Part shown: positions 535 through 61,270 of the stretch, one piece after another
How positions within the stretch are numbered: the stretch's first letter is position 1
Layout: every line of letters begins with the position of its first letter
Translations under genes and position numbers: made by a program
The notes under the pieces: generated by a model
Databases searched by the model: none
What the model saw: only the letters and a program-made list of their open reading frames with translations
What the model was told of the DNA's origin: nothing
Source: Dehalococcoidia bacterium
GTDB taxonomy: Bacteria; Chloroflexota; Dehalococcoidia; SM23-28-2; RBG-16-64-32
Assembly: GCA_963665775.2 (NCBI GenBank)
Contig: CAXXTF010000002.1
Coordinates: 672,001 to 736,000, forward strand
DNA length: 64,000 nt
Direction of reading: 5' to 3'

Positions 535-535
535 C

Positions 536-5410: not shown

Positions 5411-5419
5411 CGCCCAGGG

Positions 5420-5635
5420 CTACAGCAGCTTGCGGATGGCCTTACGGCCGGGGCGGGAGTCGTAGTTAGACTTGAACATCTCCAGCTTGTCTCGCTCGAT
5501 GAGGTACTTGCCGGCGAACAGGATAGCCGGCACCTTCTTCTGCTTGATGAGGCGGCGGAGGCTCTGAGGGTGAATGGCCAGGATGCGGGCCGCCTCCACC
5601 AAGTCCAGGTAGTTATCGAACGGTTCCGTCGTCAT
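5420..5635 (-). CDS. small helix-turn-helix DNA-binding protein (excisionase/HTH_17-like)
   Basis: YLDLVEAARILAIHPQSLRRLIKQKKVPA...GKYLI pattern; GGAG RBS. Confidence 0.85.
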   Translation of the reverse strand: MTTEPFDNYLDLVEAARILAIHPQSLRRLIKQKKVPAILFAGKYLIERDKLEMFKSNYDSRPGRKAIRKLL

Positions 5636-5763
5636 GGAGAAGCTCCAGGTAACATGCTAACACACATGAATAATACTAGCACGGGCTGTCAAGCGCAGAC
5701 TGGCCCCACCCCACAGGCCGGTTGAGATTCGGTGAACACTCCCAGATCGCGACGTTACCCGTA

Positions 5764-5792
5764 TTGACAGACATCTCTCACCCTCCTAACAT
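5764..5792 (+). promoter_or_regulatory. sigma70-type promoter for the protease gene
   Basis: TTGACA-17 bp-TAACAT. Confidence 0.55.
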
Positions 5793-5867
5793 GAACTAAC
5801 GCCCGGGTCCTGCGCAGACCTGTGATGCGGGTATGTTTTTGGGGAACGGTTGGGGGGAGGACTCGCG

Positions 5868-7360: not shown

Positions 7361-7384
7361 CGCTGTCGTTTTTCCACGCTTCTT

Positions 7385-7417
7385 TGGGGGGCGGGCCAGC
7401 ACTCGCCCGCCCTCCTT
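7385..7417. terminator. GC-rich hairpin after the protease gene
   Basis: GGGGGCGGGC...GCCCGCCCTCC inverted repeat. Confidence 0.5.
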
Positions 7418-7491
7418 CATTGCCACGGGAAAACCAATAATCTGCTTGCTAAACTCGAACGCCTCGCGTATATTGGGAACTGAGCTAACGC

Positions 7492-7974
7492 ATGGCCTAT
7501 AAGATCCTCGACACCTGCATCGGCTGCACCGCCTGCGTCAAGCGCTGCCCCACGGACGCCATCTCAGGCACCCGTAACGCCATCCACATCATCGATCCCG
7601 AGCTCTGCATCGACTGCGGCGCTTGTGGTGTCGTCTGTCCCCCGGAGTGCATTGCCGATGAACAGGGCGACCTCACCAAGGGCTTTCCCCGCCGCGAATG
7701 GCCCAAGGCCATCGTCCTTGAGGAGAACTGCATCGGTGCCGGCTGCGAGCTCTGCATCAACATCTGCCCCTTCGACGCCCTGCTACTCGACCTCTCCGGC
7801 GAGCATGTCGGCGACTTCTACGGCGTCGCCAAGCTCATCGAGCGGCGCTGCACCGGCTGCCGCCTCTGTGAGGAGGCCTGCGGCTGGGACGCCATCTACA
7901 TCGATCCGCCCAGGGATATCCTCAAGAAACACATCTACGATCCCAGCGAGCTCGCTGAAACCGCCGCCGGCTAA
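7492..7974 (+). CDS. polyferredoxin, four [4Fe-4S] motifs
   Basis: CIGCTACVKRCP, CIDCGACGVVCP, CIGAGCELCINICP, CTGCRLCEEAC. Confidence 0.92.
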   Translation: MAYKILDTCIGCTACVKRCPTDAISGTRNAIHIIDPELCIDCGACGVVCPPECIADEQGDLTKGFPRREWPKAIVLEENCIGAGCELCINICPFDALLLDLSGEHVGDFYGVAKLIERRCTGCRLCEEACGWDAIYIDPPRDILKKHIYDPSELAETAAG

Positions 7975-8029
7975 GACCCCCAGCCACCGCTCACCCCCAA
8001 ACCAACAAGCCAACAAGCCAGAGAAGCCC

Positions 8030-8097
8030 CGTCATTCTGAGCGAAGCGAGGAATCTCCAGGCGCCGTGTTAGACCCTTCCCTGCTTTCAGGGTGACA
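8030..8097. repeat. REP-like palindromic doublet (CGTC-tagged)
   Basis: CGTCATTCTGAGCGAAGCGAGGAATCT and inverted mate AGACCCTTCCCTGCTTTCAGGGTGAC. Confidence 0.7.
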
Positions 8098-8165
8098 GTA
8101 AAGGGGCCCTGGTTCAGATTCCTGGTTTGCCGGTTTGGCCGTTTGCTATACTACACCTGTCGGGC

Positions 8166-8258
8166 GGAGGGATCGCATAGTGGCCGAGTGCGCCCGCCTG
8201 CTAAGCGGGTAGGGGGTGATAAGCCCCCTCGTGGGTTCGAATCCCACTCCCTCCGCCA
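8166..8258 (+). tRNA. tRNA-Ser(GCT)
   Basis: GGAGGGA...TCCCTCC-G-CCA, anticodon loop CTGCTAA, long variable arm. Confidence 0.97.
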
Positions 8259-8322
8259 GCCTTTGGGCAGATGAATGCCGCAGCCAGCTCGCGGCAACTC
8301 GCAAGTGGAGGCCACGTCTGGT

Positions 8323-8899
8323 ATGGGCACCGATAGATTCCAGGTATACAAAGGACCGTGCGAATGTGGAAACGGGGAATACCTAGCGAACCACTGCACT
8401 CCAGACCACCCATACCCCACGAACTCACAGTGGTGGGAGTGCGAGATTACCTGCCCAAGGTGCGCGCAGATCTACAAGTTGGAAGTGCGGGGCAGACAGC
8501 TTACCGAAATTCTGATATCGGACGTCCAGGAGCGCGAAGGCCTCCAAGAGCAGTGGTACCAAGCCGAGAAGGGAGTGCATGGAGCGGTCGCAGCACTACC
8601 TGAACAAGTTTGCGGCGACGCTCCGAGAGCAGTCTTCTGTGGCGGCTATTTACCGGTACCTAAAAGCCACCGGCATCTTCCCTCTTCTCCTCACCACCGA
8701 GCAGACATTTCGCAGGCACTGGCAGGGGGCTGGGAACGCCGATAGGTGGGTTAATCTCAATGTCCGCGTAGAGCAAATCCCGTCCATCATAAGATTTCTG
8801 GGACACGAAGACCGAGCTATTGAAGCAGAAGTCCAAGCGGTTGAAAATCTGTACAGGATGCTGACACCGCCGTCAGGCAAGGCGATCGCGCGGATTTGA
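8323..8899 (+). pseudogene. hypothetical Cys-rich (CxC...CxxC) protein split by an apparent frameshift
   Basis: Two overlapping protein-like ORFs join into 191 aa if one G of GGG 8571-8573 is removed; visibly lower GC than the flanks. Confidence 0.55.
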
Positions 8900-8969
8900 G
8901 CCCACGAGTCTCACAATCTCCGTTATCCCAAACATCAAACGCTCGCAGGCGCGCGACAGATAGCCCGCC

Positions 8970-9596
8970 CTAGAGCGCGAACAGGTCCAGCAGCGCGTCG
9001 CCCACTATCACCAGCAAGATTACCCGTATCGTCTTCCCAATCCCCACCGCTAGCAGAAACCGCCAGAAGTTCATCCGCACCACCCCCGCCGTCACCCCTG
9101 CGAACTCGAACGCCGGGTTCGGCACTGCCGAAAGAAACAGCAGCGTGGCGAAACCGTAGTGGGCCATCAGCCAGTCCACCCAGCCGGCCATCTTCCGCAG
9201 CCAGCGCCCCGCTCGGCCCCGTAGCGGCATCTGCCGCTCCTCCGCCACCCCTCGGCCAACCGCCCCCGCCAGATACGCCGTACTCTCTGCCAGCGTCATC
9301 GCGGACGCCCCCGCCACCACCACGGCCACCGGGTTCAGCCCCAGCTCCCGCGGCCCCGCCACGATCAGCAGCTGGGCCGCCAGCGTCAGCCCCGGCACCG
9401 GCACGAACACCGTCGCTGTGCCCAGGAAGTTCGCCACGAATATCCCTGGCAGACCCAGCGTCTCCAGATCGTCCTTGTCCAGCCAGCCCAGCGCGAACGG
9501 CAACCACGTGCCGAACACGACCGCCAGCACCACCAACCCGGCGGCCACCAGCGGGAGCCACCGCGGTATCCTCTTCACCGGCAGCCACGACGGCAT
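8970..9596 (-). CDS. VTT/DedA (SNARE-associated) membrane protein
   Basis: FVPVPG, AESTAYLAG, LSAVPNPAFEFAG, F..F..A..IGK motifs. Confidence 0.85.
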   Translation of the reverse strand: MPSWLPVKRIPRWLPLVAAGLVVLAVVFGTWLPFALGWLDKDDLETLGLPGIFVANFLGTATVFVPVPGLTLAAQLLIVAGPRELGLNPVAVVVAGASAMTLAESTAYLAGAVGRGVAEERQMPLRGRAGRWLRKMAGWVDWLMAHYGFATLLFLSAVPNPAFEFAGVTAGVVRMNFWRFLLAVGIGKTIRVILLVIVGDALLDLFAL

Positions 9597-9766
9597 ATTT
9601 AACACCGCCCGACCGCTGCCTGGCGCCGACGGCTGATCCCCCCCGCCCCTGTCTCCCCTACGAACGTCCACTCTGCCATCGCTCTGTCAGTATAAGCGCT
9701 CCCCGCCGCGTCTCATGCCCACACTCTCCTCCTATCCCGTCTCCCTATGCTACAATCTGTCTCGCC

Positions 9767-11074
9767 ATGCGCTATCACATCTGGACTGAAGGCTGCCAGA
9801 TGAACGAGGCTGACTCCCAGAAGCTGGCCGCCGGCCTCGCCAAGCTGGGCTGGCAAGAGGCCTCCAAGCCCGAAGGGGCGGATCTCGCCATCGTCAACAC
9901 CTGCGTCGTGCGCCAAAAGGCCGAGGATCGCGCCTACGGCTATCTGGGCCACCTTCATCGCCTTAAACAAGGCCGGGACGGGGAATTTCAGATCGCCGTC
10001 ATGGGCTGCCTCGTCGGCCCTCGCACCGACGACCTGCGAGCCCGTTTCCCCTTCGTGGACATCTGGGCCCGACCCCAAAACTTCGAGGTCATCCTTCGCC
10101 ACCTCCTGCCCCAATCCGACCTGGGCGGCGAATTCTGGCCCGACACCTTCCCCGAACCTAAGGGTCCCACAGCCTTCATCCCCATCATCCACGGCTGCAA
10201 TAAGTTCTGCACCTACTGCATCGTTCCCTACCGTCGCGGCCGCGAGCGCTCTCGCACCATAGACGACGTCGCCCGCGAGGTGACATCCCTCTGTGCCAGG
10301 GGAGTTCGCGAGGTCACCCTCCTCGGCCAGACCGTCGAGGCCTACGGCAAGGACCTTCCGGATAAGCCCGACCTGGCCGACCTCTTCACCGCCATCCACG
10401 ATGCGCCCGGCCTCGCCCGCATTCGCTTCCTCACCTCCTACCCCCGCGATATGACCGAGCGGATCATCGCCGCTGTCGGGAGCCTGCCCAAGCTCTGCGA
10501 GCACTTCAACATCCCGGTCCAGGCCGCCGATAACGAACTGCTGGCCCGGATGCGCCGCGGCTACACTATTGAGGATTATGTCGAGTGGGTCCACCGCATC
10601 CGCCAGATCGTCCCCACCGCCGCCCTCAGCACGGACGTCATCGTCGGCTTCTGCGGCGAGACCGAGGCTCAGTTCCAGCGCATCCTCGATCTTCTGGCGC
10701 AGATCCGCTTCGACAAGGTCCATGTCGCCGCCTACTCGCCCCGTCCCGGCACCATCGCCTGGCGCCACCTCGAGGACGACGTGCCTCAGGACGAGAAGAT
10801 GCGCCGCCTCCACGCTGTAGAGACCCTCCAGGAGAGCATCGGCACCGAGATCAACCGACAGCTCCTGGGCACGACACAGGAGGTCCTGGTCGAGGGGGAA
10901 AAGGATGGCGTCCTTACCGGCCGCACCCGCACCAATAAGCTCGTTCACTTCCCGGGTCACGGCAACCTTGGCCGGCTGGTAGACGTCCGGATCGAAAAGG
11001 CCAGCCCCTGGGCCCTTCAGGGGCTACCCGTCGGAAGGCAGGTTGCAACGGTCGGGCCACCCGTCTCGTCCTAA
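9767..11074 (+). CDS. miaB: tRNA-2-methylthio-N6-dimethylallyladenosine synthase
   Basis: GCQMNEADS, NTCVVRQKAE, GCNKFCTYCIVP radical SAM motif, TRAM domain. Confidence 0.95.
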   Translation: MRYHIWTEGCQMNEADSQKLAAGLAKLGWQEASKPEGADLAIVNTCVVRQKAEDRAYGYLGHLHRLKQGRDGEFQIAVMGCLVGPRTDDLRARFPFVDIWARPQNFEVILRHLLPQSDLGGEFWPDTFPEPKGPTAFIPIIHGCNKFCTYCIVPYRRGRERSRTIDDVAREVTSLCARGVREVTLLGQTVEAYGKDLPDKPDLADLFTAIHDAPGLARIRFLTSYPRDMTERIIAAVGSLPKLCEHFNIPVQAADNELLARMRRGYTIEDYVEWVHRIRQIVPTAALSTDVIVGFCGETEAQFQRILDLLAQIRFDKVHVAAYSPRPGTIAWRHLEDDVPQDEKMRRLHAVETLQESIGTEINRQLLGTTQEVLVEGEKDGVLTGRTRTNKLVHFPGHGNLGRLVDVRIEKASPWALQGLPVGRQVATVGPPVSS

Positions 11075-11084
11075 CGTTCCCCCC

Positions 11085-11771
11085 ATGACTGCTCCCCTTT
11101 CCACCACCAACCCACGACCCGCCACCACCGATCGTCCTCCCCACATCGCCGTCCTCGTCGTCATCTTCACCGTGGAGGCCGACGAGCTGCGGGTGCTCCT
11201 CATACGCCGCAGCGCCGAGCCGGCCAAGAACGCCTGGTCCCTCCCCGGCGGCCTCCTGGCCCCCGACGAGTCGCTGGACGAAGCCGCCATTCGCAAGCTG
11301 GACGACGAGACCGGCGTCAGCGATCTCTTCCTCGAACAGCTCTACACCTTCTGTGACCTAGACGACCGCGCCTCCGTCTCCGTCGCCGTCGCCTATTTCG
11401 CCCTGGTGGACATCCGGCAGACCCACCTCGCCCGCCGCCGCGCCTGGCCTCCCGCCTGGTTTCCCATCGCTGCCCTGCCCGTTCCTCTCGCCTTCCACAA
11501 TGATCGTGTCATCGACTACGCCCTCCAGCGCCTCCGTGCCAAGCTGGACTACTCTAACGTCGCCTACTCCCTCCTTCCCGACGAGTTCACCCTCTCCCAG
11601 CTCCAGCGGGTCTACGAGGCGATCCTGGCCCGACCCCTGGACAAACGCAACTTCCGCAAGCGCATTCTCTCGCAGGCCATCATCGAGTCCACCGGCCACA
11701 CCCTGGCCGAGAGCCGCCACCGCCCCGCCCGCCTTTACACGTTTCGGGAACACCACCCGATCATCTTCTAG
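11085..11771 (+). CDS. nrtR: Nudix-related transcriptional regulator
   Basis: WSLPGG...ESLDEAA, LEQLYTF, LAFHN, FTLSQLQRVYE, DKRNFRKRI, RPARLY wHTH. Confidence 0.9.
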   Translation: MTAPLSTTNPRPATTDRPPHIAVLVVIFTVEADELRVLLIRRSAEPAKNAWSLPGGLLAPDESLDEAAIRKLDDETGVSDLFLEQLYTFCDLDDRASVSVAVAYFALVDIRQTHLARRRAWPPAWFPIAALPVPLAFHNDRVIDYALQRLRAKLDYSNVAYSLLPDEFTLSQLQRVYEAILARPLDKRNFRKRILSQAIIESTGHTLAESRHRPARLYTFREHHPIIF

Positions 11772-11888
11772 CCCGCGGATCCGCCGCCAAGACGACACGG
11801 CCCTTGCCCGCAACGGGGGTTGCTGCTATATTTACTTATCGAAAGCTGCCCGCAGGGGCGGTTTTCTGTACTCGAGAGGACGAGAGCT

Positions 11889-12197
11889 TTGCCGATCTAC
11901 GAATATAGATGCCCCCGTGGGCACCACTACGAAATGACGGAGGGGTTCGATGCTCCTTCCGAGCATGCCTGCCCCCACTGTGGTGCCTCCGCCAAGCGTC
12001 AGTTCAGTACGCCGGCAGTGATCTTCAAGGGCAGCGGGTTTTACAGCACGGACAACCCTAAGGCTTCGTCCGCCGGAGGCGGCCCATCCGCCGACACGGC
12101 GACATCGGAGGAGCGGCCTCCTTCGCGGGAGAGCGGGAGCGATGCCAAGGCAGACGCCAAGGCAGACACCAAGACGGAAACGAAGGCAAAGGACTAG
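11889..12197 (+). CDS. FmdB-family zinc-ribbon protein
   Basis: TTG start, PIYEYRC..GH, CPHCG, FKGSGFYSTD. Confidence 0.9.
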   Translation: MPIYEYRCPRGHHYEMTEGFDAPSEHACPHCGASAKRQFSTPAVIFKGSGFYSTDNPKASSAGGGPSADTATSEERPPSRESGSDAKADAKADTKTETKAKD

Positions 12198-12296
12198 ACG
12201 CCCTCTCGTCCGCGCCCGCCGCGCCCCTTCGGGGCGGTTACTCGTTTTACCCAAAGACTCTTTGCCCCAGCGCAGCGGTTGCGGCATGATTGCGAC

Positions 12297-12761
12297 ATGC
12301 GGGTGGTGATCCAGCGGGTGAGCCGAGCCTCCGTATCGGTGGGCAGCGAGAGGATAGCGTCCATCGGACCGGGGCTCCTGCTACTGGTGGGGGTGGCGCA
12401 GGGAGATGGAGACGCGGAGGCGCAGCGGTTGGCCCAGAAGTGCGCCGGCCTGCGCCTCTTCTCCGATCCGGAGGGGAGGTTCAGCCTGTCGCTGCTGGAC
12501 ACCAAGGGCCAGGCGCTGGTGGTGAGCCAGTTCACCCTGCTGGCGAACGCGCGGAGGGGACGGCGGCCCAGCTTCGCCGCCGCCGCGGCGCCCGAGACCG
12601 CCGAGCCGATCGTGGAGACGTTCGCCCAAGCGATGCGGGAGGCGGGCGTGCCCACGCAAACCGGCCGCTTCGGCGCGATGATGGCCGTGGAGCTGCTGAA
12701 CGACGGCCCGGTGACGATCGTGCTGGACAGCGAGGAGCTGGAGCGGCCACGACGGGGGTAG
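12297..12761 (+). CDS. dtd: D-aminoacyl-tRNA deacylase
   Basis: [26 protein letters not shown]. Confidence 0.95.
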
Positions 12762-12853
12762 GAACACACAATTGACACAGCCTGGGAGGGGCGCTATATA
12801 ATCTGCCTGACGCAAGTTCGGCACCCGAAAGGGCCGCAAGGAGGAGGGAAGCG

Positions 12854-13105
12854 ATGTCCCAGTTCTTAGACAGTCACCCAACTATGGCGAACGTGCCGCC
12901 CGAGGTGGTGCAGCAGATCAAAGAAAAGCTGCAGGCCAGACAACCAGACGCGTTCGGCGTCGTAGGTCTCAATATGTTCGTGACGAAGGACATCACGTAC
13001 TGCTTAGCCGAGGCACCCAACGCCGAGGCAGTGCACAAATCCCACGAGGCGATGGGTCTTAAACTGGGATCGGGCGATGTCAACGAGGTGCAGAGCCTGG
13101 TCTAA
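12854..13105 (+). CDS. DUF4242/SCO4226-like small protein
   Basis: FLDSH...YCLAEAPNAEAVHKSH; GGAGG RBS; TTGACA/TATAAT upstream (12772-12802). Confidence 0.75.
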   Translation: MSQFLDSHPTMANVPPEVVQQIKEKLQARQPDAFGVVGLNMFVTKDITYCLAEAPNAEAVHKSHEAMGLKLGSGDVNEVQSLV

Positions 13106-13190
13106 GTCCGCCACAGAATCGATCCTCGAGCGGAGTTACCACAAACCATAACGTTCGGGAGCGCCCCTTCGTGCGGGCCCTTCCGAGTTG

Positions 13191-14093
13191 TCATAGTTTG
13201 CTACGGGCTGTTACTGCGCCCTCTACCTCCAGGCTCAGGTCCAGCGCCACCGCCGAATGGGTGATCGCCCCCATCGAGATAAACCCTACGCCCGTTTCGG
13301 CCACCTGGCGGGCGTTGGCCAGACCGATGCCCCCGGAGGCCTCCAGGCCGGGGCGCGGATCGCGGGCGGCGGCCAAAGCGACGACCTCCCCCATGGCACC
13401 TGGGGACATGTTGTCCAGCAGGAGCTCGTCGGCGGCGGCGTCCAGCGCCTCGCGCGCCTCCTCGACAGTCGCCACCTCGATCTCGATGCACCGGCCCGGG
13501 TTCGCCGCCCGCGCCAGGCGGACGGCCTCCGCGATGCCCAGGCCGCAGGCGCGGAGGGCAGCCAGGTGGTTGTCCTTGATGAGGACTCCTTCGGCCAGGT
13601 TCGGACGGTGGTTGGTGCCACCACCCATGCGGACGGCGTACTTCTCCAGGACCCGAAGGCCGGGCACGGTCTTGCGAGTGTCGCGGAGACGGCAGCTCGT
13701 TCCCTGAAGGGCCTGCACCACGGCGGCAGTGGCGGTAGCCACGCCGCTGAGGTGGCTCAGGTAGTTGAGGGCGACCCGCTCCCCATGCAGGATAGCGGCC
13801 AGCGAGCCCTCGACTGTCGCTACGCGGTCGCCGGGGGAGAGTCGGTCGCCGTCCCGGCTATGCGGCTGCCACGCCAGCGAGGCGTCGATGACAGCGAACA
13901 CGGCAGCGGCCACAGGGAGACCGGCGAGCACACCCGCCGCCTTCGCCACGATGACGGCGCTGCCGGGCTGCTCGTCGGCCACGAGGGCGGCGGTGGTGAT
14001 GTCCTGCCCGGCGCGGTCCTCCTTGAGAGCGTCCTCCGCCAGGCGGCGCATCTCGGCCTCGTCGAGGGCGAGAGAGGGATCAGGAGAGCTCAT
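13191..14093 (-). CDS. nadC: nicotinate-nucleotide pyrophosphorylase (carboxylating)
   Basis: ERVALN, DTRKT.PG, NHR, IKDNH, LLDNM, EASGGI. Confidence 0.96.
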   Translation of the reverse strand: MSSPDPSLALDEAEMRRLAEDALKEDRAGQDITTAALVADEQPGSAVIVAKAAGVLAGLPVAAAVFAVIDASLAWQPHSRDGDRLSPGDRVATVEGSLAAILHGERVALNYLSHLSGVATATAAVVQALQGTSCRLRDTRKTVPGLRVLEKYAVRMGGGTNHRPNLAEGVLIKDNHLAALRACGLGIAEAVRLARAANPGRCIEIEVATVEEAREALDAAADELLLDNMSPGAMGEVVALAAARDPRPGLEASGGIGLANARQVAETGVGFISMGAITHSAVALDLSLEVEGAVTARSKL

Positions 14094-15678
14094 GCTGGGC
14101 TCCCCTGCGAAACACGACGTGGCGGCGCCAGGCATCGGAAGGCTGGGGAAAGTCGCTGCGGTAATGGGCGCCCCGGGACTCCTGGCGGAGCAGAGCGGCT
14201 TCGGTCACCAGGCGGCCGCAGACCAGGAGGTCGGCCAGCTCCTGCGAGCGGCGGTCGACAGGCGGTTCCAGGACGCCATGCCAGGCGGCGAGGACAGCCT
14301 TGGCGCGCGAGAGGGATGCGGCATCGCGGACGATTCCGACATCCTCCCACATGAGCGCCTGGAGGGCTTCGCGGCTGAGGGATGGGGCCTCGGCGCTAGC
14401 CGGGCAGCCTAGGTCGATCGCCTCCGGTATGGTAGGAAGGGAGCCGTTGGGAGACTGGAGCGTGCGCAATATGACCCGCTTCGCGAATACGACCGTCTCC
14501 AAAAGCGAGTTGGAGGCGAGCCGATTGGCGCCGTGGACGCCCGTGCAGGCGCACTCGCCACAGGCGTAGAGGCCCGCCAGCGTAGACTCCCCCCAAACGC
14601 TGGTCCGGATACCACCCATCGTGTAGTGGGCGGCCGGCGAGACGGGGATCGGCTGGCTCGTGATGTCGAGGCCGTGGTCCAGGCAGAAACGGTAGATCTG
14701 GGGAAAACGGGCGACGACACGAGCGGAGTCCAGATGTGTCACGTCCAGAAGAACGTGATCGGCGGCGCTCCCCTGCATTCGGTCGACGATAGCGCGGGCT
14801 ACCACGTCGCGGGGGGCGAGTTCCGCCTGCGCGTGGTATTCCGGCATGAAACGGACGCCGCCGGCATCGCGCAGGACCCCACCCTCGCCGCGGACCGCCT
14901 CGGAGATCAGGAAGGGCTGAACGCCGGGCAGGCGGAGCGCGGTAGGGTGGAACTGGAAGAACTCCATGTCCATCACCTCGGCCCCGGCGCCGTAGGCGAG
15001 AGCGATGCCATCGCCCGTGGCGACCTGCGGGTTGGTGGAAACCCGATAGAGCTGCCCGGCCCCACCGGTAGCCAGAACCAGATGACGGCAGGCATAGTCC
15101 GTGCTCTCCCCGCTGCCCTCGTCCAGGGCCCGGATTCCGCGAACCGCTCGTCCTGAGCCTGTCGAAGGACCTCCCACCAGGATCTCGGCGGCCAGGGTGT
15201 ACTCCAGGATGGTGATGCCGGACAGCCGGGCCAGCGATGAGAGCGTGAGCTCGATGTGGGAGCCGGTGGAGTCGCCTCCGGCATGGAGGACGCGGGGGAC
15301 GGAGTGGGCTCCCTCGCGGGCCAGGTCGATCTCACCGTGCAGGGTGTCGAAGGGGACGCCCAGCCGCACCAGGTCGTCGATGCGGTCGGCGGCCTCGGTG
15401 GTGAGGACGCGCCCCGCCTCCTCGTCCACGAGGCCGGCGCCGGCGGCGATGGTGTCCGCCAGGTGCATCTGAGGCGAATCGTCAGGCCCGACAGGAGCGG
15501 CGATGCCGCCCTGCGCCCAGCGCGTGTTGCAGTCCTCGATAGAGCCCTTGGTGAGGACGAGGACGGAGCCCTGCTCCCGGGCCAGCAGCGCCGCGTACAG
15601 CCCCGCTATCCCGGAGCCGACGATGATGTAGTCGTAGAAGGTGGTCATCGGGGCCGTCCCTGCACCCCTTTCGATCAT
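14080..15678 (-). CDS. nadB: L-aspartate oxidase
   Basis: GSGIAGL, WAQGGIA, EGAHS, QFHPT, HYTMGG, GVHGANRLASNSL, ESRGAH. Confidence 0.96.
   Translation of the reverse strand: MIERGAGTAPMTTFYDYIIVGSGIAGLYAALLAREQGSVLVLTKGSIEDCNTRWAQGGIAAPVGPDDSPQMHLADTIAAGAGLVDEEAGRVLTTEAADRIDDLVRLGVPFDTLHGEIDLAREGAHSVPRVLHAGGDSTGSHIELTLSSLARLSGITILEYTLAAEILVGGPSTGSGRAVRGIRALDEGSGESTDYACRHLVLATGGAGQLYRVSTNPQVATGDGIALAYGAGAEVMDMEFFQFHPTALRLPGVQPFLISEAVRGEGGVLRDAGGVRFMPEYHAQAELAPRDVVARAIVDRMQGSAADHVLLDVTHLDSARVVARFPQIYRFCLDHGLDITSQPIPVSPAAHYTMGGIRTSVWGESTLAGLYACGECACTGVHGANRLASNSLLETVVFAKRVILRTLQSPNGSLPTIPEAIDLGCPASAEAPSLSREALQALMWEDVGIVRDAASLSRAKAVLAAWHGVLEPPVDRRSQELADLLVCGRLVTEAALLRQESRGAHYRSDFPQPSDAWRRHVVFRRGAQHELS
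15142..15170. repeat. REP-like palindromic repeat inserted in-frame in nadB
   Basis: CCGCTCGTCCTGAGCCTGTCGAAGGAC, read in nadB as GPSTGSGRAV; near-identical to the copies at 40743-40807. Confidence 0.8.
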
Positions 15679-15680
15679 GC

Positions 15681-16907
15681 TTACCTCACCGTCAGCATGC
15701 GCTCCAGGGCGATGCGAGCGTCGCGGCGGGTCTCCTCGTCCAGCTCCACCCGATTCACGATCCGCCCTTCCGCCAGCTCCTCCAACGCCCAGCAGAGGTA
15801 GGCGGGATGGATGCGGAACATCGTGGAGCAGGGGCAGACCACCGGGTCCAGGCAAAACACCAGCTTGTCCGGGTTCTCGCGCGCCAGCCGGGAGACGAGG
15901 TTGATCTCCGTGCCCACGGCGAACCGCGACCTGGCAGGCGCCTCGCTGATCGTCCTGGCGATGAACTCCGTCGAGCCGTCCAGATCGGCGGCCCGGACCA
16001 CCTCCATCCGGCACTCCGGGTGCACGACGATGGTGATGTCGGGGTGCTCGCGACGGGCCCGCTCGATCTGCTCAACGGAGAAGCGGAGGTGCACGGAGCA
16101 GTGCCCCTTCCAGAGGATGACCCGGGCCCGCTCCAGCTGCTCCAGGGCGTTGCCCCCCAGGGAACCGAAGGGGAGCGTGTAATCCCAGACCGGCATCTCC
16201 TCCAGAGCGATGTCGCGCTTCAGGCCGGTGTTGCGGCCCAGGTGCTGATCCGGGAAGAAGAGGACGCGGCGGCCACGCTGGAAAGCCCAGTCGAAGACCC
16301 TGGGAGCGTTGGAGGAGGTGCAGACAATACCGCCGTTCTTGCCGCAGAACGCCTTGAGGTCGGCCGCGGAGTTCATATATGTGACGGGGACGATGTCGCT
16401 GATGCCGGCTTCCCGTAACTCGTCCCAGCAGGCGTAGACGTCATCGGGGTCCGCCATATCGGCCATCGAGCAGCCGGCCGACATATTGGGGAGAACGACC
16501 ATCTGATGCGGCTGCGATAGGATATCGGCGGACTCCGCCATGAAGTGGACGCCGCAGAAGACGATGAACTCAGCCTCCGGACGCTGTGCCGCCCACTGCG
16601 CCAGCTTGAACGAGTCGCCGCGGACCTCCGCGAACTGGATGATGTCCTCCCGCTGGTAGTGATGGCCGAGAACGACGCAGCGCTCGCCCAGCTCGCGGCG
16701 GGCGGCGGCGATCCGCCGAACGATATCGGCGGCATCCAGGCGCCAGTACTCTTCCGGGATATCCTTCTGCCAGAAGGCGAAGGCGCGCTCCTCGGCCAGG
16801 GGACGGGTCTCCAGGGGGCGATCGGTGGAGCACTCCATCGCCTCGTCCAGGACGGCCTCCTCGGTGACGACGGGGAGCGGCTGTCCGGCTTCGGCCTTGA
16901 TAACCAT
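15681..16907 (-). CDS. nadA: quinolinate synthase
   Basis: LGHHYQR, FCGVHFMAE, AGCSMAD, YMNS.A, CTSSNA, GHCSVH, HPEC, CSTM. Confidence 0.96.
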   Translation of the reverse strand: MVIKAEAGQPLPVVTEEAVLDEAMECSTDRPLETRPLAEERAFAFWQKDIPEEYWRLDAADIVRRIAAARRELGERCVVLGHHYQREDIIQFAEVRGDSFKLAQWAAQRPEAEFIVFCGVHFMAESADILSQPHQMVVLPNMSAGCSMADMADPDDVYACWDELREAGISDIVPVTYMNSAADLKAFCGKNGGIVCTSSNAPRVFDWAFQRGRRVLFFPDQHLGRNTGLKRDIALEEMPVWDYTLPFGSLGGNALEQLERARVILWKGHCSVHLRFSVEQIERARREHPDITIVVHPECRMEVVRAADLDGSTEFIARTISEAPARSRFAVGTEINLVSRLARENPDKLVFCLDPVVCPCSTMFRIHPAYLCWALEELAEGRIVNRVELDEETRRDARIALERMLTVR

Positions 16908-39890: not shown

Positions 39891-42209
39891 CTACACCCCC
39901 ACCCGCTCCAATGACGCAAACGACAGGAGCAGCTTCTTGATCCCGGCCTCGCCCCGAAAGGCGACGACGATCTGATAGTCGGCGCCGGAGGGCTCGCAGG
40001 AGACGACGATCCCCTCGCCGAACGTGCCGTGCCGCACGTGGTCACCGGCCGCGAACGTCTCCACCGCGCCCGACGGCCCCTCCACAGTCGCGGCGCCGGC
40101 CGCAGCCACGGCGTAACGATGGCGAGCGGCCAAGAGGGTGGGAGCCGCCGCCCGCTGGCTCCGAGCCATCAGCTCCAAAGGGATGTCGGCCAGGAACCGG
40201 GACGGCGGATTGGGCGCGGTATGGCCCCCGAAGGCCCGGCGGAAGGCACGCACCAGGTAGAGGTGCTGCTTCGCGCGCGTCATCCCCACGTAGCAGAGCC
40301 GTCGCTCCTCCTCCAGCTGCGCCGCGTCGCCGCTCTCCAGCGACCGCATGTGAGGCAGCAACCCCTCCTCCAGACCGACGATGAAGACGACCGGGAACTC
40401 CAGCCCCTTGGCGGCGTGAAGAGTGATCAGCGTGACCGCTTCCGCCCCCTCGTCGTACCCGTCAACATCGGTGATCAGAGCCGCGTCCTCCAGGAAGGAG
40501 GAGAGCGCCTGCTCCGGCTTCAGCTCGTCGTACTGCGCCGCCACCGCCCGCAGCTCCTGCACGTTCTCCCATCGCTCCTCGCCGTCCGCCTCCGCCAGCA
40601 GGTAGGCTTTGTACTCCGTGCGGTCCATGACGGCCTCCAGGACATCGGACAGCGAGGCGGCGCCGGCCAGGGCGATGAGCTCGTTGAGGAGGCCCAGAAA
40701 GCGGAGAAGACTGCCGGCGGACCGCTTCTGGAAGGGGTGAGCCCGTGGTTCGACAGGCTCACCACGAGCGGACTGAATACCGCTAATCCTGAGCTTGTCG
40801 AAGGACGGTTCGCCCGCCTGGCCGCCGGCGGTGCTCTCCGGCGAGTCGCGCTCGCTCTCGCCGATGAGCTGGAGGGCGGCGTACAGCGGGATACTGCGCT
40901 CGCCGGCCCAGCGGTTGAGCTCGGCCACTGTCCGGTCGCCGATAGCCCGGTGAGGGACGTTGACGACCCGCAGGAGGGCGATGGAGTCGAAGGGGTTGTG
41001 GACGAGGCGCAGGTAGGCCAGCAGGTCCTTCACCTCGCGTCGCTCGTAGAAGCGGGTGCCACCCACCAGCCGGTAAGGGATGTTGCGACGCACGAACGCC
41101 TCCTCCAGGGGCCGGGACTGGGCGTTCGTGCGGTACATGACGGCGAACTCCCGGTAGGAGCGCTTCTCGCTCTGGGCCAGCCGCTGTGCCTCCCCAACCA
41201 CGAACGCGGCCTCGTCCTCCTCGTTGTACGCCTCGTAGGCCACGACGGGCCCGCCGGCGCCGTTCTCCGTCCACAGCTTCTTCTCCTTACGCTGCTTGTT
41301 CAGGGCGATCACGCCGTGAGCGGAGTCGAGGATGGTCTGGGTGGAGCGATAGTTCTGATCCAGGACGACCAGCTTGGCGTCGGGAAAATCGTGCTCGAAG
41401 TTGAGGATGTTGCGGATGTCGGCGGACCGCCAGGTGTAGATAGACTGATCGGGGTCGCCCACCACGCAGATGTTGCGGTGGCGGGAGGACCACTGCTTGG
41501 CCAGGATGTACTGAGCGATGTTCGTGTCCTGGAACTCATCGATGTGGACGTAGCCGTACCGCTCGGCATACTTCTCCAGGGCCTCCTGGCTCTCCTCAAA
41601 CAGGTGCACCGTCTTCAGGAGGATATCGTCGAAGTCCAGCGCCTCGTTCTGCTCCAGGATCTCCTCGTAGCGGACGAAGGCGCGGGAGGTCACCTCCTGG
41701 AAGTAGTCGGCGACGAGCGCGGCGAACTGGCGCGAGTCCTGGAGCTCGCTCTTGGCCCGCGAGATGGCCGAGAGAATCGCCCGCGGAGCGATGCGCTTAG
41801 CGTCCAGCCCCAACTCCTCCATCGCCCCCTTCAGGACGGCGATCTGATCGGCAGCGTCGTAGATCGTGAAGCTATGGGGGACGCCGATCCGCTCGCCCTC
41901 GACGCGCAGGATGCGGGCGCACACACCGTGGAAAGTGCCCATCGCGATGTCCCGTCCGATCTCCTCGCCGACCAGGCCGAAGACGCGGTCGCGCATCTCG
42001 CGGGCGGCCTTATTCGTGAAGGTAACGGCCAAGATACGGCGGGGGTGCACACGCCGTTCCCGGATGAGGTAGGCGATGCGGTGAGCGATGACGCGGGTCT
42101 TGCCGGAGCCGGGGCCGGCCAGGATGAGCAGCGGGCCCTCCGTGTGCTGCACGGCCTCGCACTGCCTGGGGTTGAGGCTCTCCAGAATCGGTGATGGGAC
42201 CGTGGTCAT
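39891..42209 (-). CDS. pcrA: UvrD/PcrA DNA helicase
   Basis: LAGPGSGKT, TFTNKAA, DEFQDTN, VGDPDQSIY, QNYRST, TLHAAKGLEF, EERRLCYVGMTRA. Confidence 0.96.
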   Translation of the reverse strand: MTTVPSPILESLNPRQCEAVQHTEGPLLILAGPGSGKTRVIAHRIAYLIRERRVHPRRILAVTFTNKAAREMRDRVFGLVGEEIGRDIAMGTFHGVCARILRVEGERIGVPHSFTIYDAADQIAVLKGAMEELGLDAKRIAPRAILSAISRAKSELQDSRQFAALVADYFQEVTSRAFVRYEEILEQNEALDFDDILLKTVHLFEESQEALEKYAERYGYVHIDEFQDTNIAQYILAKQWSSRHRNICVVGDPDQSIYTWRSADIRNILNFEHDFPDAKLVVLDQNYRSTQTILDSAHGVIALNKQRKEKKLWTENGAGGPVVAYEAYNEEDEAAFVVGEAQRLAQSEKRSYREFAVMYRTNAQSRPLEEAFVRRNIPYRLVGGTRFYERREVKDLLAYLRLVHNPFDSIALLRVVNVPHRAIGDRTVAELNRWAGERSIPLYAALQLIGESERDSPESTAGGQAGEPSFDKLRISGIQSARGEPVEPRAHPFQKRSAGSLLRFLGLLNELIALAGAASLSDVLEAVMDRTEYKAYLLAEADGEERWENVQELRAVAAQYDELKPEQALSSFLEDAALITDVDGYDEGAEAVTLITLHAAKGLEFPVVFIVGLEEGLLPHMRSLESGDAAQLEEERRLCYVGMTRAKQHLYLVRAFRRAFGGHTAPNPPSRFLADIPLELMARSQRAAAPTLLAARHRYAVAAAGAATVEGPSGAVETFAAGDHVRHGTFGEGIVVSCEPSGADYQIVVAFRGEAGIKKLLLSFASLERVGV
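40743..40807. repeat. inverted doublet of the REP-like repeat inserted in-frame in pcrA
   Basis: CCGTGGTTCGACAGGCTCACCACGAGCGG and CCGCTAATCCTGAGCTTGTCGAAGGAC, encoding PSFDKLRISGIQSARGEPVEPR. Confidence 0.85.
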
Positions 42210-42263
42210 ACCTCTCGAATAATACAGGTGTTCGGGTACGCGGGGCAATGCGCGGGGGCCTGG

Positions 42264-55566: not shown

Positions 55567-57066
<1,500 letters not shown>

Positions 57067-57255
57067 TAGGGAGATGCACACACGGGCCTTTACAGGCCTC
57101 GTCACCTCCTAGGTCGGCCCCCGAACTTAGTTCGGGGACAAGCATGAAAAAACTGCCAAGCACTTCCTTCCGCTATCCAGCCGTTAAGGTACCTTTGCGT
57201 CTGTCACAACCGGCGCACCTGAGATCGCAATAACGTACAGGGGAACGCTCCCGCG

Positions 57256-57381
57256 ATGAGGTATCGACGTTGGCCGGAGCCACTGCTCACCGAGGAAGCC
57301 CAGGAGCAAGTGGACTACCTCTACGACGCTGCCAGGCAGATGCAAGCGCAACCCGACAAAGCTAAGAAGACGTTGGAGTAG
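57256..57381 (+). CDS. putative 41-aa ORF inside the 16S-23S spacer
   Basis: ATG after AGGGGA; MRYRRWPEPLLTEEAQEQVDYLYDAARQMQAQPDKAKKTLE. Confidence 0.35.
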   Translation: MRYRRWPEPLLTEEAQEQVDYLYDAARQMQAQPDKAKKTLE

Positions 57382-57434
57382 ATAACCTCGGCGCTCTGCC
57401 GCCGCCACACCTAGTGAACAGCGATCAGACAATC

Positions 57435-57511
57435 GGGCGATTAGCTCAGCTGGTTAGAGCGCGGTCCTGATAAGGCCGAGGTCGGTGGTTCGAGTCCACC
57501 ATCGCCCACCA
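57435..57511 (+). tRNA. tRNA-Ile(GAT)
   Basis: Cloverleaf, anticodon loop CTGATAA, CCA end. Confidence 0.97.
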
Positions 57512-57525
57512 CACCACAAGCCAGA

Positions 57526-57601
57526 GGGGCCGTAGCTCAGTTGGGAGAGCGCCGCCTTTGCAAGGCGGATGTCGGGGGTTCGAGTCCCCCCGGCTCCACC
57601 A
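57526..57601 (+). tRNA. tRNA-Ala(TGC)
   Basis: GGGGCCG...CGGCTCC-A-CCA with G3:U70, anticodon loop TTTGCAA. Confidence 0.97.
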
Positions 57602-57824
57602 GAACCTTGACAGCCGCGGGTGGTAAGGGTATAAAGAGTATGTTAATGACCCTCCACGACACTGGCTAGCTCCAGCTCCGACTGAGGCCCTCGGCGAATC
57701 GGCCTGCATCAGGCCGATTTCTCATGAGTGCGAAGTTGTCGTGAGGAACCACGCAGCTTAACAAACGAATAGAGAGATGACCTGAGGGATCCCAAGAACC
57801 GCGTTGTGGCGGTAATGGAGTGGT

Positions 57825-60833
<3,009 letters not shown>

Positions 60834-60885
60834 CCACTCCATTACCCCCACAACACCCTCAACCATCTCTCTATTCGTCGCCCAT

Positions 60886-60960
60886 CGCGGGGTGGAGCAG
60901 CGGCAGCTCGCCGGGCTCATAACCCGGAGGTCGTGGGTTCGAGTCCCACCCCCGCTACCA
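60886..60960 (+). tRNA. initiator tRNA-fMet(CAT)
   Basis: C1/T72 mismatch, GGG-CCC anticodon stem, loop CTCATAA. Confidence 0.95.
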
Positions 60961-61052
60961 CCAAAAACACGGTCGGCAAGCTGAGAGACCATGAGGCTGC
61001 GATCCAGCCTCCAACCTCCAGCTTCCGACCCTCCCAATTGGCGATAAAGGCT

Positions 61053-61169
61053 CCTGGTGGCCAGAGCGAGGCGGCCCCACCCGTTCCCATCCCGAACACG
61101 GAAGTGAAACGCCTCAGCGCCGACGATACTGCCCGGGCAACTGGGTGTGGAAAATAGGCCGCTGCCAGG
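61053..61169 (+). rRNA. rrf: 5S rRNA
   Basis: CCTGGTGG...CCCATCCCGAACACGGAAGTGAA...CTGCCAGG. Confidence 0.97.
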
Positions 61170-61270
61170 GGCCTTTTTCTCTACCCCATTCCCCTTCACT
61201 ACCTCCTCCCCTATCCCCCTAGAAGCGTTCTGCTATAATGGACACCGGAAGCTCGCGAGGGCTGAACCCA

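What the first reader, a model, noticed from the sequence alone, without database searches (positions are those of the whole stretch)
40735..40860. Nested palindromic repeats translated inside the PcrA helicase: a protein-invading repeat system
Seen: between LYAALQLI and SLLRFL, PcrA carries an extended segment of about 40 aa. It contains an inverted doublet (copy A 40743-40771 with a GG/CC stem, copy B 40780-40807 with a CC/GG stem) read as PSFDKLRISGIQSARGEPVEPR, next to a GC mini-palindrome (40812-40831, TAGGQAG). The frame and all helicase motifs are intact. With the nadB copy this gives three copies, read as three different peptides (PSTGSG, FDKLR, EPVEP), all open, with compensatory stem changes. 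Known: Rickettsia palindromic elements insert in-frame in genes, and REP doublets are spread by trans-acting nucleases. Inference: a non-autonomous element family in Chloroflexota that colonises permissive loops of housekeeping proteins. The mobiliser is unknown, and a GIY-YIG or Y1 enzyme is a candidate. This is the best candidate for an undescribed system in the window.
Basis: partly seen in the sequence, partly recalled or inferred. Interest (0 to 1): 0.8.

Follow-up and report, generated by a model that had tools for sequence, protein, structure and literature searches.

The report
Translated hairpin repeats inside PcrA helicase
Two copies of a small, very widespread DNA hairpin repeat sit in frame in a surface loop of the PcrA helicase, and the repeat belongs to a known kind of element that travels with a tiny GIY-YIG nuclease gene, so it is a new variant and not a new system.

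Summary
PcrA (window 39891-42248, minus strand) carries an in-frame segment, 40743-40835, built around two inverted copies of a stem-loop repeat with the loop GAGCYTGTCGA. Most relatives lack this segment.

- **Copies in this genome:** a covariance model finds 20 copies in the 2.35 Mb genome. Eleven lie in frame inside conserved genes: PcrA x2, AlaRS x2, NadB, IleRS, RpoC, GcvPA, PyrB, RarA and a DnaD-like gene.
- **Link to a nuclease gene:** two further copies bracket the genome's only small single-domain GIY-YIG gene. Of 80 homologous GIY-YIG loci from many phyla, 61 have the same hairpin within 150 nt, and the loop sequence changes with the protein clade.
- **What is already published:** this architecture is the Ssn nuclease with its SRM repeats (Chenal 2025). 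Repeats inside repair and tRNA-synthetase genes are also in print (Di Nocera 2013; Rickettsia RPEs).
- **What differs here:** the hairpin type. Its GTC tag lies inside an 11-nt loop and it fails the published SRM pattern. Its GIY-YIG clade is only 38% identical to an NTS-flanked homologue.
- **Open point:** mobilisation by the nuclease is inferred, not shown.

Earlier notes of this scan report the same theme in other genomes. Verdict: a real feature, and a new variant of a known kind.

The parts
39891..42248 (-). PcrA/UvrD-family helicase gene, 785 aa, intact
   Evidence: ORF. Full-length match to PcrA 1pjr, E 2.8e-203. Found in 29 of 31 related genomes.
40743..40835 (-). Lineage-specific in-frame segment (codons S472-R502, 93 nt). 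It stands where the shortest relatives have 12 nt, so the net gain is 81 nt.
   Evidence: DNA comparison of the loop in 22 orthologues: the region is 129 nt here against 48 nt in 5 same-family genomes and 54-60 nt in 9 others (protein alignment of 24). In the AlphaFold model residues 469-501 are coil with pLDDT under 50, between helices 455-467 and 508-528. The model is only moderate (mean pLDDT 66).
40737..40773 (-). Hairpin copy A: stem CCGCTCGTGGT / ACCACGGGC, loop GAGCCTGTCGA. Translated as SARGEPVEPRA.
   Evidence: Covariance-model hit of 43.1 bits, E 3.9e-7. Sequence.
40778..40814 (+). Hairpin copy B, in opposite orientation: left arm CCGCTAATCCT, loop GAGCTTGTCGA, right arm shortened (AGGACGG). 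Translated on the minus strand as PSFDKLRISG.
   Evidence: Covariance-model hit of 40.3 bits, E 2.1e-6. Sequence.
40809..40835 (-). G+C-rich 27 nt (STAGGQAGE) of unknown origin next to copy B. It contains the 10-nt palindrome CCGCCGGCGG at 40822-40831.
   Evidence: Read directly. It is absent from the orthologues whose loop is empty. No repeat family was assigned to it.
15142..15178 (+). Third window copy, inside the L-aspartate oxidase (NadB) frame 14083-16071 (minus strand). Read as GGPSTGSGRA. The left arm is complete and the right arm is cut short.
   Evidence: Covariance-model hit of 42.6 bits. Pfam FAD_binding_2 spans the site. The region is 18 nt longer than in 14 orthologues that have 54 nt there.

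Best explanation
The PcrA segment is selfish repeat DNA that happens to be translated.

**The unit.** It is a short oriented stem-loop, consensus CCGYTCRYSST-GAGCYTGTCGA-ASSRYGARCGG, 33 nt. A 24-nt short form also exists.

**The partner gene.** The repeat belongs to the class of hairpin repeats that accompany small single-domain GIY-YIG nucleases (the Ssn type). The genome has one such gene, at contig 2:1387001-1387297, outside the window. It has a plus-oriented copy just upstream and a minus-oriented copy over its last codons.

**Proposed mechanism (inferred).** By analogy with SsnA, the nuclease would recognise the folded hairpin on single-stranded DNA and cut beside the GTC-containing tag. 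Here that would be inside the loop, after GAGC(Y). Host repair or template switching would then paste copies at new sites. New sites tend to lie next to existing copies, or at sites that already resemble the stem-loop junction or contain GGCC.

**Why copies survive in genes.** In essential genes only insertions that keep the frame, have no stop codon and fall in tolerant surface loops survive. In PcrA this gives a 2B-domain loop lengthened by a disordered peptide. No function for the peptide is proposed.

**Shown:** the repeat family, its in-frame positions, that most orthologues lack it, its association with the GIY-YIG gene, and the change of loop sequence with protein clade.

**Inferred:** nuclease activity, the cut site, and the way copies spread.
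For: **1. Family size and position in this genome**
- There are 20 model hits at E <= 2.4e-4, then a gap to E 0.018.
- Eleven lie in frame in conserved genes: PcrA x2, AlaRS x2, NadB, IleRS, RpoC, GcvPA, PyrB, RarA and a DnaD-like gene.
- Two lie at a frame break in a decayed rve transposase gene.
- One lies in a GNAT-containing ORF of uncertain start.
- Six are intergenic or at gene ends.

**2. Orthologue comparisons**
- GcvPA is 24 nt longer here only; 24 of 24 orthologues are empty.
- RarA is 18 nt longer here only; 19 of 19 are empty.
- The same loops of PcrA, AlaRS, NadB and IleRS carry this or other repeats in several relatives and are short in the rest.

**3. Partner gene**
- Only 2 PF01541 matches exist in the genome, UvrC and a 98-aa gene. 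The small gene is bracketed by copies.
- In 80 homologous loci (55-81% identity, many phyla) the core lies within 150 nt upstream in 53, downstream or over the 3' end in 53, on both sides in 45 and on either side in 61.
- Of 232 core hits in 430 kb, 139 lie within 100 nt of the gene or in its 3' end.
- Upstream copies within 150 nt of the gene are mostly plus-oriented (56 of 79). Among downstream copies, minus leads 36 to 24, plus 18 of 19 over the 3' end.

**4. Protein clade and loop type go together** (114 loci)
- At >= 70% identity: 11 of 11 have the canonical loop.
- At 60-70%: 55 canonical, 13 variant GAG..TCGA loops, 8 none.
- At 50-60%: 8, 3 and 5.
- Below 50%: 0 canonical, 3 of the GTCAT/SRM type, 8 none.

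**5. Relatives**
- All 14 genomes with a homologue of >= 60% identity (own genome included) have at least 7 exact 13-mer cores.
- Of the 17 genomes without one, 11 have at most 5.
- Reversed-pattern controls give 0-1.

**6. Break point**
- Loop expansions and tandem partial duplications begin right after GAGC(Y): 20 expanded loops among 3.2 Mb searched, none in a shuffled control.

**7. Target duplication**
- GcvPA reads AAC[GGCC]-20 nt-[GGCC]TCGCC where a relative has AAT GGC CTC GCC.
- The IleRS copy of G017, compared with the same-genus G002, and the RpoC copy here show the same GGCC..GGCC 24-nt form. The DnaD-like copy has one of the two mutated (GGCC..GGCG).

**8. Published biochemistry of the kind**
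- SsnA cuts only single-stranded DNA, upstream of its hairpin motif, and only on one strand (PMC11893778).
Against: - No activity of this protein has been tested.
- GIY-YIG nucleases are not known to join DNA, so a paste step is missing from the proposal.
- The hairpin fails the published SRM search pattern.
- The protein's nearest solved relatives are UPF0213 proteins (E 6e-19), not a proven Ssn.
- Four relatives (G016, G022, G025, G029) have 32-68 cores but no close homologue found with this query. Three of them had no match at E <= 1e-5. They are 81-90% complete, and G025 is a single contig.
- The GGCC duplication rests on one clean filled/empty pair plus three look-alike copies.
- RarA shows a different junction (CCTGA..CCCGA), and PyrB shows no net length change against 23 of 26 orthologues.
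- The downstream association is slightly biased, because the query's last 10 residues are encoded by the hairpin. The upstream count is not affected.
- The loop hot spots could be old single insertions followed by turnover, not repeated hits. I built no tree to separate the two.
Confidence: 0.72

Rival explanations
1. The hairpins are spread by something other than the GIY-YIG protein, such as a tyrosine (Y1/RAYT) transposase, another IS enzyme or host replication slippage. On this view the small GIY-YIG gene is a homing passenger that lands in or next to hairpins.
For: - GIY-YIG enzymes are classic homing endonucleases and have no strand-transfer chemistry (established knowledge).
- Copies attract copies: 179 neighbouring pairs lie within 120 nt in all four orientations, and nested inserts occur.
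- Four relatives have 32-68 cores with no close GIY-YIG homologue found.
- Di Nocera et al. concluded that CGTC REPs lack a dedicated transposase (abstract).
Against: - Loop sequence tracks the GIY-YIG clade. That is expected if the protein reads the loop.
- The orientation is ordered, mostly plus upstream and minus downstream of the gene.
- The only Y1_Tnp signal is one weak partial match (20.8 bits), about 23 kb from the nearest copy.
- The hairpin has no GTAG tag (sequence).
Confidence: 0.15
2. The intragenic copies are kept because they do something for the host. They could be single-strand cleavage sites that limit recombination of incoming DNA in core genes, as proposed for NTS in Neisseria. 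Or they could act as DNA or RNA structures that tune replication or expression of these genes.
For: - SsnA with NTS lowers transformation of NTS-flanked DNA in N. meningitidis (PMC11893778).
- The hit genes here are mostly replication, repair, transcription and translation genes. Di Nocera et al. saw a similar tilt.
- The same loops are occupied in several relatives.
Against: - Occupancy is patchy. Many same-family relatives have the short loop.
- Copies decay in place: shortened arms and nested inserts.
- An excess of essential genes is what survival bias alone predicts, because broken non-essential genes are lost or no longer recognised.
- No RNA data were available.
Confidence: 0.1
3. The PcrA segment is an ordinary lineage-specific loop that resembles the repeat by chance.
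For: The loop varies in length among relatives anyway, from 48 to 192 nt.
Against: - Both halves score 40-43 bits against a model that finds only 20 sites in 2.35 Mb.
- They share an exact 12-nt core with copies in other genes.
- 0 of 100 shuffles of the window reach the observed count.
Confidence: 0.01

Closest known systems
Ssn nucleases with NTS / Ssn-related motifs (SRM), Chenal et al., Nat Commun 2025 (PMC11893778; outline, Results sections 5 part 1 and 10, Discussion, Methods section 17 and term searches read; 10 spreadsheet supplements searched by term, PDF supplements not readable)
   Same: - A single-domain GIY-YIG protein of about 95 aa.
- Its gene is bracketed by oriented hairpin repeats.
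- Gene-less copies of the repeat are scattered through the genome and clustered in inverted pairs.
- The system is found across many phyla.
- Repeat sequence varies with the protein.
   Different: - The hairpin fails the published SRM pattern.
- Its GTC tag lies inside an 11-nt loop, not 5' of an 8-bp stem.
- The core string is not in the paper's main text or in the 10 supplements held.
- The protein is 38% identical to an NTS-flanked homologue, and its best solved relatives are UPF0213 proteins.
- The paper reports NTS inside genes as rare (2% in N. meningitidis). Here 11 of 20 copies are in frame in genes.
CGTC-tagged REPs, including Neisseria dRS3 and Rickettsia RPE-4/RPE-6 (Di Nocera et al., BMC Genomics 2013, PMC3733652; abstract, section 6 and passages read)
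   Same: - Small oriented palindromic repeats with a (C/T)GTC tag.
- Mostly arranged in inverted dimers.
- Found in several phyla.
- Copies occur inside genes for DNA synthesis and repair (UvrD/Rep helicase is named) and tRNA synthetases, and encode 20-30 extra residues.
   Different: - CGTC REPs have an unpaired terminal tag, 8-9 bp stems that start with AT, 4-5 nt loops and a CCA tail.
- Here the stem reaches 11 bp, the loop is 11 nt and the loop holds the tag.
- That paper lists GTAG repeats, not CGTC repeats, for Chloroflexi.
Rickettsia palindromic elements (RPE-1), Ogata et al. 2000 (recalled; seen here only as cited in PMC3733652)
   Same: Selfish palindromic DNA inserted in frame in many unrelated housekeeping genes and tolerated as surface peptide.
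   Different: - RPE-1 is several times longer (recalled).
- It is confined to Rickettsia and no partner gene is described.
- Sequence relatedness to the present repeat was not tested.
REP/REPIN with RAYT tyrosine transposases (Bertels & Rainey 2011, PMC3116915, listing only; Nunvar 2010 and Ton-Hoang 2012 as cited in PMC11893778)
   Same: Short hairpin repeats, often as inverted doublets, that flank a single-copy gene for the enzyme thought to move them.
   Different: The partner here is a GIY-YIG nuclease and not an HUH/Y1 enzyme. There is no GTAG tag. The only Y1 signal in the genome is weak and distant.

Membership tests
Ssn / SRM system (Chenal 2025) | Small single-domain GIY-YIG protein of about 90-100 aa | tested here: met
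   98 aa. PF01541 is the only Pfam family found, at 64.6-66.8 bits. There is no NCBIfam match.
Ssn / SRM system (Chenal 2025) | Gene flanked 5' and 3' by hairpin repeats that also occur elsewhere in the genome | tested here: met
   In the own locus, copies lie at contig 2:1386952-1386988 (plus) and 1387267-1387303 (minus). Both flanks are occupied in 45 of 80 homologous loci and either flank in 61 of 80.
Ssn / SRM system (Chenal 2025) | Repeat fits the published degenerate SRM sequence HGTCWYN(0-2)YYVSBRHN(0-5)WNVSBRGN(0-2)RNCYNB | tested here: not met
   The published pattern was run over the gene and 200 nt on each side at the 80 loci. There was one hit, an NTS-like unit in L218, and none on the GAGCYTGTCGAA hairpins.
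Ssn / SRM system (Chenal 2025) | Protein belongs to the cd10448 clade | tested here: inconclusive
   No CDD search is available here. The protein is 38% identical (E 7e-14) to an NTS-flanked homologue in L383. It is 25% identical (E 2e-10) to a YhbQ-like protein of a Neisseria genome. Those two proteins do not match each other. The best solved relatives are UPF0213 proteins 1zg2 and 1ywl.
Ssn / SRM system (Chenal 2025) | Strand-specific cleavage of single-stranded DNA next to the motif | not testable with these tools
   This needs purified protein and oligonucleotides.
CGTC-tagged REPs (Di Nocera 2013) | Unpaired terminal CGTC/TGTC tag, 8-9 bp stem starting with AT, 4-5 nt loop, CCA-like tail | tested here: not met
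   The consensus of 218 copies has the TGTC inside an 11-nt loop, a stem of up to 11 bp ending in T-A next to the loop, and no CCA tail.
REP/REPIN-RAYT | GTAG tag and a flanked Y1 (HUH) transposase gene | tested here: not met
   The repeat has no GTAG. The genome has one weak partial PF01797 match of 20.8 bits (23.4 with its neighbours in the frame), about 23 kb from the nearest copy.
MITE derived from an IS | Terminal inverted repeats shared with a transposase-bearing parent, and target-site duplication | tested here: inconclusive
   No parent with a DDE transposase was found. A GGCC direct duplication flanks the 24-nt form at one clean filled/empty pair and at three look-alike copies, one with a mutated repeat. 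A different junction is seen in RarA.
Rickettsia palindromic elements | Sequence membership in an RPE family | not tested
   No RPE sequence was fetched. Only the behaviour is compared.

The most novel reading that the evidence does not exclude
The GAG..TCGAA hairpin and its GIY-YIG partner form a distinct, pan-bacterial branch of single-strand 'cut and template' elements, a sister branch to Ssn/NTS.

The nuclease would nick the loop after GAGC(Y). Units of 24 or 33 nt, both multiples of three, would then be copied into GGCC sites or into sites that resemble the stem-loop junction.

That would make this branch a steady source of new surface-loop sequence in replication, transcription and translation proteins of free-living bacteria, not only of symbionts. 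The hypervariable centre of the loop would mark the cut site and would predict the specificity of each paralogue.
Probability: 0.3. Interest if true: 0.7.

Novelty: new variant of a known kind. Interest (0 to 1): 0.45.

Why it matters
Ssn nucleases were described only in 2025, and the authors state that their role outside Neisseria is open.

- **A second hairpin design.** This locus has the tag in the loop, a matching protein clade, and natural variation (paralogues with different loops in one bacterial family). That variation could be used to read the recognition code of these very small site-specific single-strand nucleases.
- **Host range of the behaviour.** In the papers read here, in-frame colonisation of core proteins was reported mainly for Rickettsia (CGTC REPs) and Opitutus terrae (GTAG REPs). 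Here it is common in a free-living Chloroflexota lineage, and the same protein loops are used again and again.
- **Annotation.** These repeats create spurious 'hypothetical proteins' and break assemblies. Contigs of one run end at the PcrA copies.

Tried and rejected
- **Rfam:** at gathering thresholds only rRNA and tRNA were found in the window, and nothing at the repeat.
- **Literature by string:** six short peptide motifs and four 12-nt core strings found no relevant paper. Chloroflexota combined with REP, MITE or hairpin-repeat terms gave no listed paper holding a repeat term. An Ssn follow-up search for 2024 onwards found only the original paper.
- **Attempt to fetch Neisseria ssnA:** the small GIY-YIG gene of the N. 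lactamica genome reached through an NTS locus is YhbQ-like and has no NTS flanks. Two NTS clusters held no gene. NTS-flanked homologues were then found in other genomes.
- **G·T versus A·C mismatches** (to find the strand that folds): 158 against 114, but the sign depends on the stem position and the copies are related. Left as a hint only.
- **Orientation relative to replication:** GC skew is weak and the two contigs give no clear origin. Inconclusive.
- **Fixed doublet geometry:** PcrA (42 nt) and AlaRS (43 nt) share a minus/plus spacing, but their spacers differ. Across the loci all four orientations and many spacings occur. I therefore dropped the idea that the doublet is the mobile unit.
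- **IS copies:** the two copies in the rve transposase sit at a frame break, but the IS is present only as fragments. This is no clean example of a frame-breaking insertion.
- **Expression:** no RNA holder was listed for the PcrA stretch.
- **Population polymorphism:** in contigs of four runs no contig skips only the insert, and two contigs span it intact. Contigs drop rare variants, so this does not settle the question.
- **Other checks:** NCBIfam gave nothing for the GIY-YIG protein. This genome had no earlier notes in the scan.
Full report
**1. The observation**

PcrA occupies window 39891-42248 on the minus strand and is an intact 785-aa frame. Each arm is itself a stem-loop around the 12-mer GAGCYTGTCGAA.

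The 12-mer, with up to one mismatch, occurs 5 times in the window against 0.64 expected, and 0 of 100 shuffles reach 5. Three of the five hits are true copies: two in PcrA and one at 15155 in NadB. The other two have no stem.

Rfam has no family at this place.

**2. The segment is an insertion**

Against Geobacillus PcrA (1pjr), query residues 461-508 stand opposite chain residues 447-455. By my recollection of that structure this lies in domain 2B.

I aligned the loop in 24 orthologues from 31 related genomes, and read its DNA in 22 of them:
- Five same-family genomes have a 48-nt loop (..ERDSPEGPTGAHP..).
- Nine others have 54-60 nt.
- The window has 129 nt.

Other relatives carry different fillings at the same spot:
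- one single hairpin (L030);
- three copies, one with an expanded loop (L022);
- plus-oriented copies with nested inserts (L002, L003, L004, L026);
- minus-oriented copies in the PSTGSG frame (L006).

An AlphaFold model built on 17 orthologues is only moderate (mean pLDDT 66, pTM 0.42). It places residues 469-501 as low-confidence coil between two helices.

**3. The family in this genome**

The window is contig 2:672001-736000 of a 2.35 Mb genome in two contigs.

I built a covariance model from 17 copies. In those copies 72% of stem cells are paired against 61% in shuffles (0 of 500 reach the observed value). The two inner pairs are C-G in 13 copies and G-C in 4, with none unpaired.

The model finds 20 sites at E <= 2.4e-4, and the next hit is at E 0.018. 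Only 150 of 1254 first-look candidates were scored, so a few copies may be missed.

By ORF and Pfam context the 20 sites divide as follows:

| Context | Sites | Which |
|---|---|---|
| In frame in conserved genes | 11 | PcrA x2, AlaRS x2, NadB, IleRS, RpoC, GcvPA, PyrB, RarA, DnaD/DnaB_2-like |
| Frame break of a fragmentary rve transposase | 2 | two IS copies |
| ORF of uncertain start | 1 | upstream of a GNAT domain |
| Intergenic or at gene ends | 6 | upstream of tpiA, a GHMP-kinase gene, pyrB and cofD; both flanks of a GIY-YIG gene |

Weaker, decayed relatives lie in NrdJ, in DnaX (a 24-nt tandem array) and at the TopA start.

**4. Are the intragenic copies insertions?**

I compared eight genes with up to 30 relatives.

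| Gene | Result |
|---|---|
| GcvPA | +24 nt, own genome only; 24 of 24 orthologues empty |
| RarA | +18 nt, own genome only; 19 of 19 empty |
| NadB | +18 nt against 14 orthologues with 54 nt; the right junction is shared with G016, so the insertion is older; other relatives carry other repeat families there |
| AlaRS | inverted doublet, about 30 aa; short in most of 26; differently filled in G016, G015, G008, G022 |
| IleRS | about 10 aa here; G017 has an independent +24 nt copy nearby that same-genus G002 lacks |
| RpoC | lies in a hypervariable linker; no clean empty state |
| PyrB | no net length change against 23 of 26 orthologues; three relatives have large repeat-bearing inserts at the same point |
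| PcrA | as described in section 2 |

All length differences are multiples of three. Selection enforces this in intact genes, so it is not independent evidence.

The unit has no stop codon in 3 or 5 of its 6 frames, depending on the stem variant. The two most-used frames (PSTGSG and EPVEG) are closed by TGA in the variants with A in the stem and open in those with G. This may explain some stem mismatches in genic copies.

**5. The partner gene**

The genome has two PF01541 matches: UvrC and a small gene at contig 2:1387001-1387297. A plus-oriented hairpin ends 13 nt before its GTG start. A minus-oriented hairpin covers its last codons and its stop.

I fetched 80 loci that encode homologues of 55-81% identity. 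They come from records named as Dehalococcoidia, Burkholderiales, Thermodesulfobacteriota, Sphingomonadaceae, Nitrospirota, Sulfuricurvum, Cyanobacteria and others.

Of 232 core hits in 430 kb, 67 lie within 100 nt upstream, 53 within 100 nt downstream and 19 in the 3' end of the gene. Counted per locus: 53 of 80 upstream, 53 of 80 downstream or 3' end, 45 both, 61 either. The query's last 10 residues are encoded by the hairpin, which may inflate the downstream count only.

Loci without the exact core mostly carry the same architecture with other loops, such as GAGGCTCTCGAA, GAGGTATCGAA and GAGCGAAGTCGAA.

In the 31 related genomes the gene is patchy:
- 23 of 31 genomes have a match, with 0-5 paralogues each.
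- The closest homologues (81-83%) are in another taxonomic family, where PcrA is only about 67% identical.

Paralogues have their own loops on both flanks. The most distant ones (31-38% identity) have GTCAT-type units like the published SRM. The identity-by-loop table for 114 loci is.

Core copy number per genome ranges from 0 to 125. It is at least 7 in all 14 genomes with a homologue of >= 60% identity, and at most 5 in 11 of the other 17. The exceptions are listed under evidence against. These genomes are related to each other, so I give no statistical test.

**6. Range of the repeat**

The record titles span many phyla.

A 17-mer could occur there by chance. However, 29 of the 133 matches also have the exact 8-nt left arm CCGYTCRY, against about 0.02 expected. 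Only 4 have the exact right arm. The left arm plus the loop therefore behave as the conserved unit, and the distal right arm is often missing, as in NadB, RarA and PcrA copy B.

In four metagenome runs, contig depth over 40724-40831 reaches 305-15,717 against about 2-6 in most of the other bins; bins over conserved parts of the helicase reach the hundreds to about 1,000. The repeat is very abundant in those communities.

**7. Hints about mechanism (inference)**

- Loop expansions, nested inserts and tandem partial duplications start right after GAGC(Y).
- The centre of the loop is the part that varies among paralogues.
- SsnA cuts single-stranded DNA just upstream of its tag. A cut 5' of (Y)TGTCGAA would fit that.
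- The clean GcvPA pair shows 20 new nucleotides plus a duplicated GGCC. The same form appears in IleRS of G017 and in RpoC, and in the DnaD-like copy with one GGCC mutated.
- In RarA and PcrA the empty sites already resemble the stem-loop junction: GCTCGCCCTGA in a relative's RarA, and CCTGAAGG in relatives' PcrA.

These are few sites and I may be over-reading them.

**8. Comparison with what is known**

- Chenal et al. 2025 describe SsnA, NTS/SRM repeats and the repeat-gene-repeat layout. They note its likeness to an IS and to REP/RAYT.
- Di Nocera et al. 2013 describe CGTC-tagged REPs (dRS3, RPE-4/6). They describe intragenic REPs in UvrD/Rep helicase, excinuclease, polymerases and tRNA synthetases.
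- The present hairpin fails the SRM pattern and the CGTC-REP anatomy. Its core string is not in the Ssn paper's main text or its 10 readable supplements. The PDF supplements could not be read and might bear on this.
- The protein is 38% identical to an NTS-flanked homologue and also resembles UPF0213 proteins.
- Earlier notes of this scan report Ssn-type hairpins in frame in housekeeping genes of at least 38 other genomes. I did not check those notes. One mentions a 4-bp target duplication, which agrees with the GGCC case here.

**9. Verdict**

The 'undescribed system' claim does not hold.

It is a new variant (hairpin type and nuclease clade) of a known kind. It shows an unusually high share of translated copies, and the same protein loops are used repeatedly. 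Mobilisation by the GIY-YIG protein is likely but not shown.

Noticed in passing
Relatives' loci L454, L455, L438, L440, L441 (NadB); L404 (AlaRS); L004 (PcrA); L522, L525 (IleRS): Other small palindromic repeat families are translated in the same protein loops in relatives. Their peptides read HPERSEGS/HSERSEES, GATFRSP, ARHDAPLR, RDVPVERLQ, RADTQVGPY and VGALRE. Several families seem to share the same landing loops.
   Followed up: partly
G000 contig 2:802226-802262 and surroundings (L248), outside the window: DnaX (tau/gamma) carries a tandem array of 24-nt units derived from the repeat core, read as GEAPSxxSGEAPSxGSG, in the linker after domain III.
   Followed up: partly
G000 contig 2:1387298-1389735 (L154:1776-4235), outside the window: The flanked GIY-YIG gene lies directly upstream of mutS2. 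RarA, 7 kb away, carries an in-frame copy. Four copies cluster within 8 kb.
   Followed up: no
G000 contig 1:295991-296027 and contig 2:107295-107331: Two copies lie in fragments of an IS with an rve-type transposase, exactly where the reading frame breaks. Further 500-nt fragments of the same IS occur at four other places.
   Followed up: partly
L462, L463, L167 (downstream of GIY-YIG genes in relatives): Tandem repeats of the half-unit GCTCACCATGAGCGG plus a 14-nt spacer follow the downstream hairpin. It looks as if copying restarted repeatedly at the GAGC/GCTC point.
   Followed up: partly
L480, L481, L482 (relatives); L263-L265, L268 (Dehalococcoidia records): Classical NTS/SRM-type (GTCAT-tagged) repeats, and distant GIY-YIG paralogues flanked by them, also occur in this bacterial order. 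Two hairpin/nuclease pairs can coexist in one lineage.
   Followed up: partly
window 55567-61170: A complete rRNA operon (16S, two tRNAs, 23S, tRNA, 5S) lies in the window. It looks ordinary.
   Followed up: no
window 40400-41200 in runs X2, X9, X10, X18: Contigs of one run end at the PcrA hairpins (records 17 and 18 of X2). The repeat breaks short-read assemblies.
   Followed up: no
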